Virus record (IMG/VR): IMGVR_UViG_3300026258_000006
Location: 1-47,659 of that record
Length of the DNA stretch: 47,659 nucleotides
Source of the DNA: a virus
Taxonomy: Duplodnaviria > Caudoviricetes
Reading direction: 5' to 3' (one strand)
Made by a program: the position numbers and the translations under genes. Every line of letters begins with the position of its first letter. Within the stretch, counting starts at the first letter, position 1. A model generated the notes under the pieces. The model made no database searches, was not told where the DNA came from, and saw only the letters and a program-made list of their open reading frames with translations. Positions 26,801 through 47,321 of this stretch are shown piece by piece.

Positions 26801-28520
26801 TAACACTAGATCTGCTGCTTTACAGTTATTATCTTCTTTAAATTTTATAGGTAAACCTAATAATAATATTTTTCAAGCAACAGCTGCTTTAGGTCCAGGT
26901 TGGAGAAAAGATTTTAAAAAATTATGGAATAGTGATTATTTAAAAAATCGTAGAGATGGTGCTAAATTTGATGTATTAGCTGATGAAATGGCTGAAGGTG
27001 ATGTCAAAGGATTAAATAAATTATTAAAAGCAGGATTTTTACCTACAAGATATGCAGATAGTTTTGCTATAGCTATGGGAGGTGCTTCTTTTTATAGAAA
27101 TACCAAAAAAGCATTAATGAAAGAAGGTTTGTCAGAAACAGAGGCAGAAAATAAGGCTATGCAAGAATGGATAAATGCAGCAGAAGAGTCTCAACAATCC
27201 GCAGATCCTTCTAAAATATCTGAAATACAATCTAGTAATTTAGGAAAAGTAATTTTTGCTTTTGCAAATACACCATTTCAATATGTTAGAAAACAAAAAA
27301 GACATTTACAAGATGTTATTTCTGGTAGATCAGCTGCAAAGGGTGGAATGAATCAAGTAAGAAAAGATTTGCAAAGTGTTTTATACTATTCAGCGGGGCA
27401 AGCTTTATTATTTAACGGTTTACAATCCGCTTTATTTGTTGCGGCTTTTGAAGATGAAGATGAAGAAAAAGAGCCAATTACTATGAGGAAAGGCTCTAAT
27501 GTTGAGCACCCTAAATATGGAACTGGAAAAATTCTTAACTTAGAAGGAAGAGGTAAAAATAGATTTGCTACTGTTAAATTTGGAAATGAAACAAGAAAAA
27601 TTAGAATGTCTTTAACTAAAATGAAAGGCATACATCCAGATAAAGTAAATAAATTATCTCAGAGGGAAATATTAGCTATTGAACGTGCTTTAACTTCATA
27701 TGCTAAAAGTTTAGGAAATCCAGGTGCAGTTACTGCCGCTTTATATAGCGTAATGGCTGAAGCAAGTGAACAAATAGAGAAAAAAGGAAGAATAGATAAC
27801 GCTTATAAAATAGCACTAGAGGCTACAGCAATCTCTCCTCCTTTAAATGCAAAACTAAAAGATTTAGTTGCTATTGGTAATATTGCAAAATATAACTATA
27901 AAACTATAGAAGAGGATCCATTTAAACCCTCTTTAAAAAATCCTGTATTAGAAATAACTGGTAATGCAGCTTCTTTTGGTGGAGTTCCTTTAGATAGGGT
28001 AATTAGAAAAGCCCAAAATCTTTCTGCTATTGCTAATGAAGAGGCAGAAAATTGGCAAAGATTATTCTTGTTATTAGGGTGGAGTGATTGGGAATTAGGT
28101 GTTCCTGATTTAGAAGCTCGAGCTAGAAAAGAAGAAAAAGCAAAGAAAAAGAAAAAATCAACTAAAGTAAATTATGGTTGGGGAACTTCAAGTAGAAAAA
28201 GAAAAGGATCAACACCTAGCTATAAAAAAGAAGGTGGGGTTAAAATTCTAGGTAAAGCCCATAAAGACGGTACTATTGAAATAGCCCCAGGTTTATCCCC
28301 TGAAAAAAGAAGACAAGTTGAAGCCCATGAAAAGAAACATTGGAAAGATATGCAGGCCGGTAAATTAGATTATTCTAAAGATTGGGTAAGATATGGTAAT
28401 AAACATTATAAAAGAACTCCTGATAAAAAAATAGTTTATAATGGTAAAAAATATATAGAAGGGCATCCCAAACTACCTTGGGAAATTGCCGCAAATAAAG
28501 CAGAAAGACAAGTCACTTAA
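20895..28520 (+). CDS. giant polyvalent virion/ejection protein (two zincin-like HExxH domains, Tudor-like insert)
   Basis: 2541 aa; HEAGH at 25194 with downstream ENEVFAR; HEKKH at 28326 with PWE; VEHPKYGTGKI Tudor-like segment at 27483. Confidence 0.75.
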   Translation: MFKVYTVNGQEYEVSNEKESKFLQEFPDAELIEDTVSTPTETVTQDEVVSTPEASWGSSSSEFEDAFLSPDYGNTNFEENAAGTQGIPTKNPVNLPSYGGKKDLTPEALYNTALDAYYDSKDPTGIAKYVAPQIAGFIGGAADIVNGVSEDIPKGLLKAGIGFFMDDEDIDEEHERDALTASVDAMYDRFGGPLKGLGDISEWISEKSSKLTRKAEQGKDFVDNFKEGNYAEGARMLTQDVTSAVPSLLTAMIPGGIGILGGIAAADKFEQGYEGLEGKEDDWSNVYKAAATAGLVESVTALTTRGLGKSTTWVANKMGVPAAKSVIGHYATKMGAGAVQEGIEESAAAWADKAIDKYMLGDEKAMDNVYKEMRRQGIVGSILGVLGAGGSRSGGKKFSELTKEEKELLTNGLQPRDLSRKQREKEKQIVSNSLKLKSLKDDPILYKAKEEEILNDYRSLQESKQQINNQFSELSEPQIQRMQEISKELGELDLYTSEISNTENQVETAKNKIKQLEQEQQDIFLNPDGLDIQRAQPVLEENIKLSNDTQKLYGVPAGKDSEKAELNNTQIDGIIDKQLGLINKTAIEAVGSFGKEGDIAEMVSQLKYGKGGMVDMIKTYNPSTGVPLSAYLANPRTGLPQRAKRLVKNVTQQDVSLDEQLGTPESLVQEAFDTNFDVSVGSKLLADRIGLKPETINQAKDIVEKGLFKAESRLMDKNLTPKKRISEANKAFTKPFKDRIAKDIKEVIGKGKDFDNFVDKNWKPIAQAFIAQNQVSKGTGVSKEWAKFPPSKDQVVDYFTGKDLKVGDISPRTGQPLTEAQIGRAISTRKTRALTEALASHIGIEARNEFFKDNPQIRKQFQEDTKIQWKADANAVNEKVQQEYYNKQNIVKNITDPKPGVVAKFKELGKQGLSALRGGKKLWTTKKATQSDLNNNPQWAEAGIEIGHNVYNESDIETLKEQLGSTISKIPKNLSDILGINNVYALVGKKNRAFDPAKVTKPSVLDITQEDVIAEYQSKYDSDLFAEESAESIRKSLGGSPKWLVSADGSVKRIKPGDPGVGYEFFKDKESLAKDVQELFDKKQISKESYNEYKKINLDNVQLQNTQFKKKGTLLGDAIDIAKSDKYKTKEERQDAFNELWPSAKIKAVGDANHQLMKFYVSLLKNEYKNGNLSADALTTLLQWQSSIVEGFRSLTGFNAVYFTDGPSKINKGEHLKPNALSMAQLKNNITGAPNAKTLDAIVKGHMQAFGPSKLFDQVDKLGKTTAMPGLERIVFGIGPNEANNFWDPYTKKTFTQMRLEEMAKQKGVGINEAYAQLWNEYQTDGSLARTIESTIDVSKMKMYKKALDEKAPQLNQEETSKAFVDILQGNWNKDGETILEAFTDPNEMVDVLMNEYGQSDIQAKEGVKHFGFKIGNKIFINLKAGKGVETAVHEAGHLWNSIVRNGAPKVWNGIMSRVKGEGLWDKYVQQIEKSPSTYSDILQSYNDGSNTFDLENEVFARILEEYGSNKGIKSKSSIKKIKDIIGKYFNQLKTMLGFDPTTKNFGDLTVKEMIDLAVSEVVTGNPLANFSQLKDSQNEPWFVKTHQEVSPTFRAESNPEFQALKQLQKEYRDNNYDLTKAIENSYQQVKNIMPFEDWAQFVQNTISETDIKTGETISGKALLVAKKDAIENERTRVKQLKVLREAGLFSEGDQFLPTELLNEKLRKADDNIIKTNKENFQKEGLNKNFRKILNSKPARSSKPSSWFIPPNAEDIQGLLYSFLPKGAEGNKAKEFFNSTILKPYSEGVAASNAEIIQKTKLYSKVSKGIDVNKKIKGTPYNIGDAIRVYNWVKNGEQVDIKKQEYIDTLIDAVDGDVDLKSFANIINKDFPIDYNAEWRHDSFNKAIYETINKNTRKRHLEVFASNVDSIFDKDNMREIENVYGKKFARALENSLRRMKTGKNRVSTDAQSNKFLTWVNRAVATTMFVNTRSAALQLLSSLNFIGKPNNNIFQATAALGPGWRKDFKKLWNSDYLKNRRDGAKFDVLADEMAEGDVKGLNKLLKAGFLPTRYADSFAIAMGGASFYRNTKKALMKEGLSETEAENKAMQEWINAAEESQQSADPSKISEIQSSNLGKVIFAFANTPFQYVRKQKRHLQDVISGRSAAKGGMNQVRKDLQSVLYYSAGQALLFNGLQSALFVAAFEDEDEEKEPITMRKGSNVEHPKYGTGKILNLEGRGKNRFATVKFGNETRKIRMSLTKMKGIHPDKVNKLSQREILAIERALTSYAKSLGNPGAVTAALYSVMAEASEQIEKKGRIDNAYKIALEATAISPPLNAKLKDLVAIGNIAKYNYKTIEEDPFKPSLKNPVLEITGNAASFGGVPLDRVIRKAQNLSAIANEEAENWQRLFLLLGWSDWELGVPDLEARARKEEKAKKKKKSTKVNYGWGTSSRKRKGSTPSYKKEGGVKILGKAHKDGTIEIAPGLSPEKRRQVEAHEKKHWKDMQAGKLDYSKDWVRYGNKHYKRTPDKKIVYNGKKYIEGHPKLPWEIAANKAERQVT

Positions 28521-28538
28521 TAATTAATATCAATAAAA

Positions 28539-29660
28539 ATGAAAGAGTTTTTAAAAAGCACCACTAATGGTTTAAACAAGCCCATTAAAAAAATTTCTCT
28601 TAAAGATTCTATGGGGAAAAAAGGCTGGAACAATGGGAAGGTCTCTAGTGTATTAACAAAAAAACAGTATAAACAAAAAGATGGCAGTTGGGGAGACGAA
28701 CCCGTACACCCGTCGCAACTCTCTAGATCTGAATTAGAAAAAAAGGGGTTAATACCAGATTCCTCTACTAAAACTAATAAACCTTCTAAGCCTACTTCAA
28801 AAACCGAGGGTGGTTTAAACGAAAGAGGCATATGGGTCAAAAAAGGGGGTACAGCTACAGGCAATATAAAAGATCTTGCTCATGGCAGTAAAGCTAGATA
28901 TGATGAATACGAGGCTAGAGGGTGGAAGCATGATGAAACTACCTCTGGTTATAAGCCTAACAAATCTAAAAAAGATTATAAAAGTACTTTTGAAAAAATG
29001 GCTTCAGGTGAAAACAAAGGTGGCTTAATGAGAGATGTTGCTCGAAGAAAAGCTAAAGAAAAAATTCAAGAAATAAATAATAGATTAGCTTCAGAAAAAA
29101 GTGACGAAAATAAACCTGTAGGTATTACCAGAAGTCAACAAAGAAAAGATAAGCGTACTAATAGAAGGGCAGAAAGAAGAGCTGCTAGAACTGCTAAAAA
29201 TACTATTGGAGGCGTTAGTGAAGAACAAAATCAAGCAAACATTCAAGCTGAAAAAGATAAAATAAACAGAAGAAGACAAAATAGAAATGATTTTTTAAGA
29301 AATTTTGGTTCTCAAATTACTAGAGGAGTACAAGCTGCGCCAAGAGAAGGTTTTGATGCTAATAGAAGTGGTCAAAACTTTTATAATGACCAAAAAAATC
29401 AAGTTCAAAAAGACTCAAAATCTGCAGAAGCTATAAAAAAAGATGCTGATGTAGAAATGAATAAATACCAAATTGACGGAACTTTTGGAGCTGATACAGA
29501 TTTTACAAACGCTTCTATGCGTGATAATTTATTTGGTAATTATAATCAACAATTTGGCCAAGCTGGAAACAATCCTTTTACAGCAGGTAATAATACTAAC
29601 AAAGACAAAGACAGAAACTCAATTACTGGCAATATGAGAGATCAATATTTGGGATTTTAA
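28539..29660 (+). CDS. basic low-complexity hypothetical protein
   Basis: 373-aa K/R/N/Q-rich ORF on the late strand. Confidence 0.65.
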   Translation: MKEFLKSTTNGLNKPIKKISLKDSMGKKGWNNGKVSSVLTKKQYKQKDGSWGDEPVHPSQLSRSELEKKGLIPDSSTKTNKPSKPTSKTEGGLNERGIWVKKGGTATGNIKDLAHGSKARYDEYEARGWKHDETTSGYKPNKSKKDYKSTFEKMASGENKGGLMRDVARRKAKEKIQEINNRLASEKSDENKPVGITRSQQRKDKRTNRRAERRAARTAKNTIGGVSEEQNQANIQAEKDKINRRRQNRNDFLRNFGSQITRGVQAAPREGFDANRSGQNFYNDQKNQVQKDSKSAEAIKKDADVEMNKYQIDGTFGADTDFTNASMRDNLFGNYNQQFGQAGNNPFTAGNNTNKDKDRNSITGNMRDQYLGF

Positions 29661-45398: not shown

Positions 45399-45471
45399 TT
45401 GCGAGGGGAGGATTCGAACCTCCGACCTCAGGGTTATGAGCCCTGCGAGCTGGCCACTGCTCTACCTCGCT
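45399..45471 (-). tRNA. tRNA-Met(CAT), initiator (fMet) type
   Basis: AGCGAGG TA GAGC AGTGGCCA GCTC G CAGGG CTCATAA CCCTG AGGTC GGAGG TTCGAAT CCTCC CCTCGCA A; 1:72 mismatch, A11:U24 and three G:C pairs in the anticodon stem; no encoded CCA. Confidence 0.93.
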
Positions 45472-45477
45472 AAAAGT

Positions 45478-45612
45478 TAGGGGATTAACAGCCACGGTTT
45501 TCCATCCGATGGGAGTTACCTTAATTTGTTATCTCCAATATCACTGTTATCGCTTCAATGTCTGGCTTGCAGTCGTATTCTGATTCGCAAACATTACTTC
45601 ACTTTTCCCCTA
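45478..45612 (-). ncRNA. candidate structured ncRNA, about 135 nt
   Basis: Closed by a 7-bp terminal helix TAGGGGA/TCCCCTA; internal AGCCA/TGGCT, GGAG/CTCC, CCAT/ATGG and TTGC/GCAA complementarity; GC-richer than its flanks. Confidence 0.45.
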
Positions 45613-45618
45613 TATATT

Positions 45619-45677
45619 AAGGACCTCACCGGAGGTTTTATTCACCCGTGCACAGGTACACCGGTTTATTGGTCCTT
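45619..45677 (-). ncRNA. candidate 59-nt irregular hairpin RNA
   Basis: Nested helices AAGGACC/GGTCCTT, ACCGG/CCGGT and ACCTG/CGGGT. Confidence 0.5.
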
Positions 45678-45682
45678 TTTAG

Positions 45683-45760
45683 TGGACGTGGGAGGAGTCG
45701 AACCTCCGTTTGCTGATAGTGTACTTTCGAACTTTGTCAGCACTAACCAATTTCACGCCC
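45683..45760 (-). ncRNA. tRNA-like RNA resembling an isolated tmRNA tRNA-like domain (Ala identity)
   Basis: GGGCGTG/CACGTCC acceptor stem with G3:U70 and A73, stemless D-loop AAATTGGTTAG, helix TGCTGA/TCAGCA, AAC linker, T-arm GGAGG-TTCGACT-CCTCC. Confidence 0.75.
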
Positions 45761-45914
45761 TATTATATCTTATCCAATAATCTCTTTCAAATGCTTCAAT
45801 TTGAGCACTAGAAACTTTCATTATTTTAAATTTAGCTCTTTTTCTTGCTAAACCGTATAAGTCTTTTTTATTTACTATTTTATGTTCGTTTTCTATTATT
45901 TTATTTATATTCAT
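45753..45914 (-). CDS. 53-aa hypothetical protein whose stop overlaps the tRNA-like RNA
   Basis: Hand translation MNINKIIENEHK...DYWIRYNRA; the TGA stop lies in GGGCGTGA. Confidence 0.45.
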   Translation of the reverse strand: MNINKIIENEHKIVNKKDLYGLARKRAKFKIMKVSSAQIEAFERDYWIRYNRA

Positions 45915-47280: not shown

Positions 47281-47321
47281 TTGAGTAGGTGAGAATCGAA
47301 CTCACATTAACCATTTACTCA
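47281..47321 (-). ncRNA. tRNA minihelix (acceptor stem plus T-arm, no D or anticodon arm)
   Basis: TGAGTAA ATGGTTAAT GTGAG TTCGATT CTCAC CTACTCA A, followed by CTA. Confidence 0.7.

What the first reader, a model, noticed from the sequence alone, without database searches (positions are those of the whole stretch)
45683..45760. 78-nt tmRNA tRNA-like domain with alanine identity but no tag ORF or pseudoknots
Seen: acceptor stem G1-C72, G2-C71, G3:U70 with A73; an 11-nt D-loop with GG and no D-stem; a 6-bp helix capped by about 20 irregular nucleotides; a 3-nt AAC linker; and a canonical T-arm. Established: G3:U70 is the AlaRS determinant, and a stemless D-loop, long helix 2 and short linker into the T-arm is the architecture of the tmRNA TLD bound by SmpB, but tmRNAs normally carry a few hundred nt of mRNA-like domain in between. 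Inference: a stand-alone TLD could titrate SmpB and block SsrA tagging of phage proteins, or add Ala to stalled chains without a degradation tag. Jakobid mitochondrial tmRNAs that lack the tag ORF are the nearest precedent I know of.
Basis: partly seen in the sequence, partly recalled or inferred. Interest (0 to 1): 0.85.

Follow-up and report, generated by a model that had tools for sequence, protein, structure and literature searches.

The report
Phage mini-tmRNA with swappable RNA cap
A marine phage carries a 78-base gene that copies only the tRNA-like end of the bacterial ribosome-rescue RNA (tmRNA), a form already known from one mycobacterial phage; here the missing message is replaced by a small RNA module that other phages also keep on its own, and the RNA likely competes with the host's rescue-and-tag system.

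Summary
Window 45683-45760 (-) is a real short gene: alanine-type acceptor stem (G3:U70, A73), stemless D-loop, helix 2, AAC linker, T-arm, no tag frame. The idea is not new: mycobacteriophage DS6A has a published 'TLD only' tmRNA, and this scan noted the kind before on other DNA. This copy belongs to a subfamily found mostly in ~60-kb podoviruses related to Flavobacteriia phages (36 of 50 carriers share the terminase). G3:U70 held in 27 of 28 hits of a search that did not ask for it; stems covary; no anticodon is conserved. The elbow departs from host tmRNA (AAC for GAC, shorter D-loop), so SmpB binding is plausible but unproven. New here: the 20-nt 'irregular' cap is a mobile module. The same 20 bases occur in 20 other virus contigs: 9 in a TLD, 6 on plain stems, 5 in a T-arm-less shell in phages lacking that terminase. 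11 of 34 cap families have such free copies. Best reading: an alanine-charged SmpB competitor that also displays an interchangeable RNA module. Function is inferred, not tested.

The parts
45683..45760 (-). TLD-only mini-tmRNA gene, 78 nt to the discriminator A73 (followed by CUA at 45682-45680; CCA would have to be added by the host)
   Evidence: model R1 65.2 bits (the window was in the training set)
45754..45760 (-). Acceptor stem 5' strand (G1, G2, G3 at 45760-45758)
   Evidence: pairs 7 of 7 with 45684-45690, pair probabilities 0.99-1.0
45743..45753 (-). 11-nt stemless D-loop with GG (45748-45747) and a final G (45743), the likely counterpart of E. coli tmRNA G19
   Evidence: sequence; 'AG' within 1-4 nt after GG in 57 of 84 relatives; mapping to G19 is inference from PMC8363625
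45737..45742 (-). Helix 2, 5' strand
   Evidence: 3 of 6 pairs change on both sides among 9 close relatives, 0 of 500 shuffles reach the covariation score
45717..45736 (-). 20-nt cap: mobile RNA module that also occurs outside any TLD
   Evidence: exact match (one R position) in 20 IMG/VR contigs: 9 in a TLD, 6 on plain 8-9 bp stems, 5 in a T-arm-less shell
45711..45716 (-). Helix 2, 3' strand
45708..45710 (-). AAC linker (host tmRNA: GAC; DS6A: CAC)
   Evidence: NAC in 84 of 94 relatives without being asked for; GAC in 51 of 51 full-length tmRNAs
45691..45707 (-). T-arm, 5 bp with UUCGACU loop
   Evidence: outer three pairs 99% paired in 94 relatives against 55% with shuffled partners
45684..45690 (-). 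Acceptor stem 3' strand (U70 at 45686)
45619..45677 (-). Neighbouring structured RNA module 'A' (separate unit of the same RNA cluster, not a required partner)
   Evidence: z -3.3; 7 homologous loci with covarying stems, 5 of 7 with a TLD within 1.5 kb, order varies
45478..45612 (-). Neighbouring RNA 'B'; its arm 45490-45545 is the cap of the TLD gene in another phage (L459)
   Evidence: 91% identity over 56 nt
45399..45471 (-). tRNA-Met(CAT), initiator type (1:72 mismatch, three G-C pairs in the anticodon stem; initiator features recalled)
45753..45914 (-). 53-aa upstream ORF whose stop codon lies inside the TLD (nt 6-8)
   Evidence: arrangement not conserved
47281..47321 (-). 41-nt tRNA top-half RNA (acceptor stem, 9-nt D-loop-like linker, T-arm); independent accessory unit, used here as control

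Best explanation
This is a phage gene for a 78-base RNA that keeps both ends of tmRNA and carries, in place of the message, a 20-base module that phages of this group also keep outside it; the RNA is likely trimmed and charged with alanine by host enzymes and likely competes with host tmRNA for SmpB, which would dampen tagging of stalled proteins during infection. Shown: anatomy, conservation, covariation, absence of tag frame and anticodon, accessory distribution in a podovirus clade, mobility of the cap. From established knowledge: G3:U70 plus A73 are the AlaRS determinants, RNase P and CCA addition mature such ends, a TLD fragment alone binds SmpB, and a DS6A-like TLD inhibits tmRNA. Inferred: expression, alanylation, SmpB binding of this altered elbow, a flavobacterial host, and a second, separate job of the cap (probably binding a host protein as a decoy).
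For: Both tmRNA ends in one short gene. G3:U70 and A73 in 27 of 28 hits of a pattern that left the acceptor stem free; the 28th has no acceptor stem. Control: the 41-nt top-half RNAs of the same and other phages vary their acceptor stem freely, G:U at 3:70 in 2 of 50, so fixed alanine identity is particular to the TLD. Linker NAC in 84 of 94, A73 in 92 of 94, perfect 5-bp helix 2 in 54 of 81 (shuffled partners 11.9), lengths 68-97 nt: the SmpB-facing joint (A334/C335 counterparts, a G at the D-loop end) is kept while the cap changes. 12 of 84 relatives keep a tmRNA-type YGAY D-loop end, among them L578 and L635, which lie in contigs of this clade, linking the subfamily to tmRNA. DS6A itself has CAC, not GAC. 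Published precedent for inhibition (PMC4131195, PMC11915505). A TLD fragment of 25 + 34 nt was crystallised with SmpB (PMC3985003 legend). No SmpB gene in this record, so the partner would be the host's (record 74% complete). A distant relative, phi38:1, carries a full-length tmRNA with its own tag, and Calle has one (PMC8776804).
Against: The elbow departs from host-type tmRNA: GAC linker in 51 of 51 and GG-N4/5-GAC in 50 of 51 full-length genes, against GG-UUA-G and AAC here; G19, A15, U17 and A334 are SmpB contacts and G19C abolishes binding (PMC8363625). The D-loop also resembles that of the top-half RNAs and of ordinary tRNAs. All 27 acceptor stems are identical, so relatedness cannot be separated from selection on G3:U70 alone. 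Variants without alanine identity exist: G3:C70 with U73 in L235, A3:U70 in L478, U73 in L613. In 5 contigs the cap survives unchanged while T-arm and G3:U70 are gone. The gene is accessory: 0 of 18 records chosen by terminase alone had it, though only 2 of them are at least 90% complete. The primary paper on inhibition (Mao 2009) was not readable here.
Confidence: 0.45

Rival explanations
1. Natural tRNA scaffold: the TLD serves mainly as a stable, self-trimming carrier that displays interchangeable RNA modules (decoys for host RNA-binding proteins); SmpB binding is weak or lost.
For: Cap identical in 20 contigs in three settings; 11 of 34 cap families have free copies; L751 holds one module both free and in its TLD; an arm of the window's RNA B is the TLD cap in L459; complete ~34-kb phages without the related terminase keep cap and helix 2 but no T-arm; elbow differs from host tmRNA.
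Against: A mere carrier need not keep G3:U70/A73 (27 of 28) or the NAC linker (84 of 94). The modules evidently work on plain stems too. No target of any module was identified.
Confidence: 0.25
2. Tag-less rescue: Ala-TLD with SmpB and EF-Tu enters stalled ribosomes, adds one alanine and ejects the broken mRNA, so that phage proteins escape the degradation tag.
For: All parts needed up to peptidyl transfer are kept (mechanism passages in PMC3985003); CDS-less mitochondrial tmRNAs persist with SmpB (PMC11915505).
Against: Without a stop codon the peptidyl-Ala-TLD needs another release route; none was identified in the window among 43 proteins scanned against PHROGs. Not separable from SmpB competition by sequence.
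Confidence: 0.1
3. Processing mark (t-element-like): a tRNA shape that directs RNase P and 3' trimming so as to cut the early transcript and release neighbouring RNAs.
For: It lies between an ORF and a cluster of small RNAs ending in tRNA-Met; the clade has other anticodon-less tRNA-like units. Reading taken from earlier scan notes on minihelices.
Against: Does not explain fixed alanine identity, unlike the freely varying top-half RNAs, nor helix 2 and the linker.
Confidence: 0.08
4. tRNA decoy: an anticodon-less alanyl-tRNA mimic that soaks up host defence enzymes acting on tRNA acceptor ends or elbows, or EF-Tu.
For: Several anticodon-less tRNA mimics sit in the early region of this clade; t(m)RNA fragments serve in an anti-CRISPR complex (PMC11662646 passages).
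Against: No defence system tied to it; tmRNA-specific linker and helix 2 are kept.
Confidence: 0.08
5. Decayed tRNA-Ala, integration-site remnant or assembly artefact without function.
For: Below both Rfam cut-offs; prophages often carry ssrA fragments (PMC9004378 passage).
Against: Both ends present, compensatory changes in helix 2 and T-stem, about 160 stretches estimated in IMG/VR for this acceptor type, independent contig identical, no integrase among the 43 proteins scanned.
Confidence: 0.02

Closest known systems
'TLD only' tmRNA of Mycobacterium phage DS6A (tmRNA Website tmID 11587 / Phage__Mycobacterium.9; JN698994 28478-28560)
   Same: Phage gene of about 80 nt with both tmRNA ends, G3:U70, A73, stemless D-loop, helix 2, 3-nt NAC linker, T-arm, CUA end, no tag frame; scores 49 bits on model R1, which included it in training.
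   Different: DS6A keeps the tmRNA-type GAC D-loop end and a cap of a type shared by 15 of 52 unique short genes; the window has a shorter UUAG D-loop end, AAC linker and a cap that is a mobile module. blastn with the DS6A gene finds no other full-length match among 50,697 phage records.
Standard one-piece bacterial tmRNA (RF00023), Bacteroidota type; full-length phage tmRNAs of phi38:1 and Calle
   Same: Acceptor stem with G3:U70/A73, stemless D-loop with GG, helix 2, T-arm; CCA often not encoded.
   Different: No mRNA-like domain, tag or pseudoknots; linker AAC instead of GAC (51 of 51); 3 instead of 4-5 nt between GG and the last G of the D-loop.
CDS-less organellar tmRNAs (jakobid and oomycete mt-tmRNA RF02544; ~65-bp Mallomonadaceae plastid genes)
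   Same: tRNA-like domain without tag frame (PMC11915505 passage).
   Different: RF02544 gives no hit; those are housekeeping organelle genes, usually permuted, with a dedicated SmpB.
Engineered tRNA scaffolds for RNA expression (recalled; not read here)
   Same: A tRNA top half that carries foreign RNA modules on one arm.
   Different: Here natural, built on a tmRNA end, with modules shuffled among phage RNA genes; the carrier role is inferred.

Membership tests
TLD-only (standard, no CDS) phage tmRNA, DS6A kind | Both tmRNA ends in one short unpermuted gene, 'little more than the TLD' | tested here: met
   definition from PMC4131195 and PMC11915505
TLD-only (standard, no CDS) phage tmRNA, DS6A kind | Alanine identity G3:U70 and A73 | tested here: met
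   window sequence; 27 of 28 unforced; A73 92 of 94
TLD-only (standard, no CDS) phage tmRNA, DS6A kind | Stemless D-loop with GG, helix 2 and 3-nt linker into the T-arm | tested here: met
TLD-only (standard, no CDS) phage tmRNA, DS6A kind | Closer to tmRNA than to tRNA | tested here: met
   RF00023 34.6 bits against RF00005 27.1 bits; 12 of 84 relatives with tmRNA-type D-loop end. Margin is modest.
TLD-only (standard, no CDS) phage tmRNA, DS6A kind | SmpB-contact nucleotides of the elbow kept | tested here: inconclusive
   A334/C335 counterparts and a terminal D-loop G kept; spacing and G333 differ from host
TLD-only (standard, no CDS) phage tmRNA, DS6A kind | Binds SmpB and inhibits endogenous tmRNA | not testable with these tools
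   needs binding and reporter assays
Standard tmRNA (RF00023) | mRNA-like domain with tag frame and pseudoknots | tested here: not met
   326 model positions replaced by 33 nt
Standard tmRNA (RF00023) | Rfam gathering score 47 bits | tested here: not met
   34.6 bits; DS6A also falls short, 43.2
Permuted / two-piece tmRNA | Permuted ends and a separate coding piece that pairs with the acceptor piece | tested here: not met
   RF04321 16.3 bits, E 1.6; cap does not pair with RNA A or B beyond chance (36 and 452 of 500 shuffles as good); neighbours differ among relatives
mt-tmRNA (RF02544) | Match to the model | tested here: not met
   no hit at E <= 1
Canonical tRNA-Ala | D-stem and 5-bp anticodon stem with 7-nt loop and an alanine anticodon | tested here: not met
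   best cloverleaf fit has 3 of 5 anticodon-stem pairs and no alanine anticodon; ARAGORN no call; caps vary freely
t-element-like processing mark | Cleavage by RNase P / 3' nuclease that defines neighbouring RNA ends | not testable with these tools
   needs RNA end mapping

The most novel reading that the evidence does not exclude
In this phage clade the tmRNA head has become a natural display scaffold: the message was replaced by a slot into which short structured RNA modules are swapped from a combinatorial non-coding RNA array in the early region. Each module is a decoy or ligand for a host protein, and the alanylated, SmpB-bound head delivers it to, or stabilises it near, stalled ribosomes. 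The array (TLD, top-half RNAs, nested hairpin modules) would be an uncatalogued RNA-based counter-defence kit of marine flavobacterial phages.
Probability: 0.3. Interest if true: 0.8.

Novelty: new variant of a known kind. Interest (0 to 1): 0.5.

Why it matters
The curated tmRNA database lists 9 'standard, no CDS' genes among 97,179 (PMC11915505), and ARAGORN and the Rfam cut-off miss this one, yet such genes are common in uncultured phages (63 of 120 loci of one scan pass a strict filter). If they inhibit trans-translation, phages routinely attack ribosome rescue with an RNA. The swappable cap adds a testable question: what do these 20-60-nt modules bind, and why mount them on a tmRNA head? 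The window supplies a minimal pair for the bench: the same cap with and without the TLD.

Tried and rejected
No RNA holder listed for the region; expression is open. blastn of the region or of the gene against cultured phages found only tRNA-Met and T-arm matches. A pattern scan of bacterial genomes returned almost only 3' ends of full-length tmRNAs, so it says little about prophage copies. Six named relatives (MW202828, elemoA, phi13:2, phi38:1, Gundel_1, phi46:3) gave no strong hit with model R1 (best 26.6 bits against 41-72 for members). Message in trans: RNA B has a short frame resembling a tag start, but it is not kept in the one homologue; a joint that skips RNA B was seen in two runs but with short sides, so weak. 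RNA A recalled a twister ribozyme; Rfam gave no hit at E <= 10. Identity of the modules: no Rfam family in 17 array-rich loci besides tRNA and tmRNA. The cap matches 15 of 16 bases of one Bacteroidota-phylum 23S rRNA (0 of 1500 shuffles), but this was the best of 94 tests, two other 23S genes differ there, and the folds differ: inconclusive. The one bacterial-genome hit of the cap (a MAG labelled Rickettsiales) is a typical TLD copy among phage-like ORFs and was not taken as host evidence. The sigma-70-like site at 45790-45762 ends 2 nt before G1, too close for a precursor start, and site counts are at chance (15 against 17.9). The stop codon inside the TLD is not conserved. The supplement of PMC11915505 gave no hit for 'Phage' or 'no CDS', so I could not check whether a clade member is among its 79 phage genes. 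Mao et al. 2009 is not held.

Full report
Observation. On the minus strand, window 45760-45683 reads as a 7-bp acceptor stem with G3:U70 and A73, an 11-nt loop with GG and no stem, a 6-bp helix closed by 20 nt, the linker AAC and a canonical T-arm. It folds better than 197 of 200 shuffles. The tmRNA model RF00023 aligns to both ends and drops 326 internal positions for 33 nt (34.6 bits, E 1.3e-11, cut-off 47); the tRNA model scores 27.1 bits, the mt-tmRNA model nothing, and ARAGORN does not call it. A brute-force search finds no cloverleaf with a real anticodon arm. A contig from an independent metagenome covers 45679-45911 without a difference. The E-value alone would not settle the matter, because 76-nt hits in bacterial genomes score alike; the relatives do.

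Setting. The window is a 47.7-kb virus record, 74% complete, with terminase, portal, GroES, primase-helicase, ribonucleotide reductase and thymidylate synthase. Its terminase matches 87 named phage records, 86 of them phages of Flavobacterium, Cellulophaga, Tenacibaculum or Maribacter (46% to Elemovirus, 37% to Pachyviridae), so a flavobacterial host is inferred. The gene lies in the early-type region of small ORFs, ahead of two structured RNAs and a tRNA-Met. No SmpB gene was found in the record.

Precedent. Hudson et al. 2014 (PMC4131195, passages seen) list mycobacteriophage DS6A as 'TLD only' and state that a similar molecule, chargeable or not, strongly inhibits tmRNA, perhaps by titrating SmpB. 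Nawrocki et al. 2025 (PMC11915505, passages seen) count 9 'standard, no CDS' genes among 97,179 and repeat the DS6A result. The primary paper (Mao 2009) was not held. The DS6A gene was located at 28478-28560 and has the same layout with a CAC linker. Earlier notes of this scan report the same kind on other genomes (8 notes shown). Ten literature searches showed no paper on a wide phage family of such genes or on swappable caps; subscription journals are mostly not covered.

Family. A strict pattern gave 120 loci (about 280 stretches estimated); 63 of 120 pass a filter for a full acceptor stem and T-stem without a tRNA-Tyr loop, 52 unique genes with 17 different acceptor 5' strands (G3:U70 was forced there). 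The window's own acceptor type gave 99 unique sequences (about 160 stretches estimated). After dropping 5 cloverleaf tRNA-Ala genes, 84 of 94 have a NAC linker (AAC 56), 92 of 94 A73, the free T-stem pairs are 99% paired against 55% with shuffled partners, and a perfect 5-bp helix 2 is found in 54 of 81 against a mean of 11.9. With the acceptor stem left free, 27 of 28 hits have G3:U70 and A73; the exception has no acceptor stem. Among 9 sequences with the window's cap, 3 of 6 helix-2 pairs change on both sides (0 of 500 shuffles reach the score; related sequences can exceed shuffles). 36 of 50 carrier records hold the related terminase, 14 of 17 among near-complete ones. The gene is accessory: 0 of 18 records picked by terminase alone had it, two of them near complete.

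A control comes from the same phages. The window has a second anticodon-less unit at 47281-47321: acceptor stem, 9-nt linker, T-arm. Of 121 pattern hits, 115 form both stems; in 52 unique ones the T-stem is 99.5% paired against 58% and the acceptor 96.8% against 55%, with G:U at 3:70 in only 2 of 50 (register chosen by best fit). These units change their acceptor freely, whereas the TLD keeps alanine identity. The two are independent: 7 of 40 records have the small unit, one of them without a TLD.

SmpB contact. In E. coli, G19 packs on SmpB, G19C prevents binding, and Trp122 sits in a pocket of A15, U17 and A334 (PMC8363625, passages). Full-length tmRNAs from the phylum of a Rikenellaceae genome have GAC as linker in 51 of 51 and four or five bases between GG and GAC in 50 of 51 (51 of 57 hits examined). 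The window has three bases between GG and its last D-loop G and AAC as linker. So the A334 and C335 counterparts and a terminal G are kept (AG in 57 of 84), but spacing and the G333 position differ; 12 of 84 relatives keep a tmRNA-type ending. Binding is plausible, not assured. Variants that lost alanine identity exist (L235, L478, L613).

The cap is a module. The 20 bases at 45717-45736 occur exactly (one position free) in 20 other IMG/VR contigs. In 8 they sit in a typical TLD and in 1 in a diverged TLD; in 6 they stand on a plain 8-9-bp stem of different sequence, and all 6 records belong to the clade and have a TLD elsewhere with another cap; in 5 they sit on helix 2 inside an acceptor-like stem with G:C in place of G3:U70 and no T-arm. 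Those 5 records lack the related terminase and any R1 hit; two are complete genomes of about 34 kb. Of 34 cap families among 47 unique clade-type caps, 11 have a copy outside a TLD in the loci held (families are over-split and flanks limited to 0.3-3 kb). L751 holds one module both free and as its TLD cap, modules nest in one another, and an arm of the window's RNA B is the TLD cap in L459 (91% over 56 nt). What the modules bind is unknown: no Rfam family, no convincing rRNA or genome match.

Mechanism. Most likely (0.45) the RNA is cut at G1 by RNase P, given CCA, alanylated and bound by host SmpB and EF-Tu, and so lowers the pool of SmpB for host tmRNA; the cap would add a second, separate activity. 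Maturation, AlaRS rules and TLD-SmpB binding follow from the tmRNA literature (PMC3968760, PMC3985003, PMC3022190, passages); their application here is inference. The main rival (0.25) is that the head is only a carrier for the module. Tag-less rescue, processing mark and tRNA decoy follow at about 0.1 each; decay is disfavoured by covariation. That this phage lineage meddles with trans-translation gains some support from phi38:1, which has an unannotated full-length tmRNA with its own tag, and from Calle (PMC8776804, passages). PMC9004378, PMC11662646 and PMC7162821 (passages) treat full-length or host tmRNA and do not describe this form in the passages seen.

Verdict. Real; a member of the published TLD-only kind by the features that could be tested; a new variant through its altered elbow and interchangeable cap. 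Interest 0.5.

Noticed in passing
window 47281-47321 (-); L457-L576: 41-45-nt tRNA top-half RNAs with a fixed 9-10-nt linker and freely covarying stems; about 160 stretches estimated in IMG/VR, including many 60-100-kb contigs from one large data set; no Rfam family. Earlier scan notes read such units as processing marks.
   Followed up: partly
window 45619-45677 (-); L736-L742: Structured RNA 'A' with covarying stems, an A-rich internal loop and often a self-complementary apical loop; no Rfam hit; 5 of 7 homologues lie near a TLD.
   Followed up: partly
window 45478-45612 (-): RNA 'B': three-way structure whose 3' arm is the TLD cap in L459; apparently absent in some population variants.
   Followed up: partly
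L751 ~960-1260, L517, L525, L687, L247: Dense arrays of short hairpin modules, some nested in each other, between early ORFs of this clade; uncatalogued.
   Followed up: partly
window 45753-45914 (-): 53-aa ORF of a small conserved family; here its stop codon lies in TLD nt 6-8, so 5' trimming of the TLD would leave a non-stop mRNA. Homologues have their own stop about 10 codons later.
   Followed up: yes
L711 1500-1859 (-) = KC821614 (Cellulophaga phage phi38:1) ~26805-27164: Full-length tmRNA not annotated in the record, with a long tag ending VAVGV rather than ALAA-type.
   Followed up: partly
L235 ~1444 (-); L224; L639: Second TLD copies in one genome; the L235 paralogue has G3:C70 and U73.
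   Followed up: no
L215, L216, L220, L225; L212, L240, L245: Two further families of anticodon-less RNAs that end in a T-arm and acceptor-like stem.
   Followed up: no
L398 1152-1228 (+) = Arthrobacter phage Reedo, between primase-helicase and DNA polymerase genes: Unannotated tRNA-like element with a T-arm, matched in dozens of Arthrobacter phage records; weak on model R1 (23.8 bits).
   Followed up: no
window 47397-47360 and 44995-44960 (-): Repeated promoter-like motif ahead of early units, also seen in relatives.
   Followed up: no
L363, L379: Two short TLD-like genes in bacterial genome assemblies that also hold full-length tmRNAs; context not examined.
   Followed up: no
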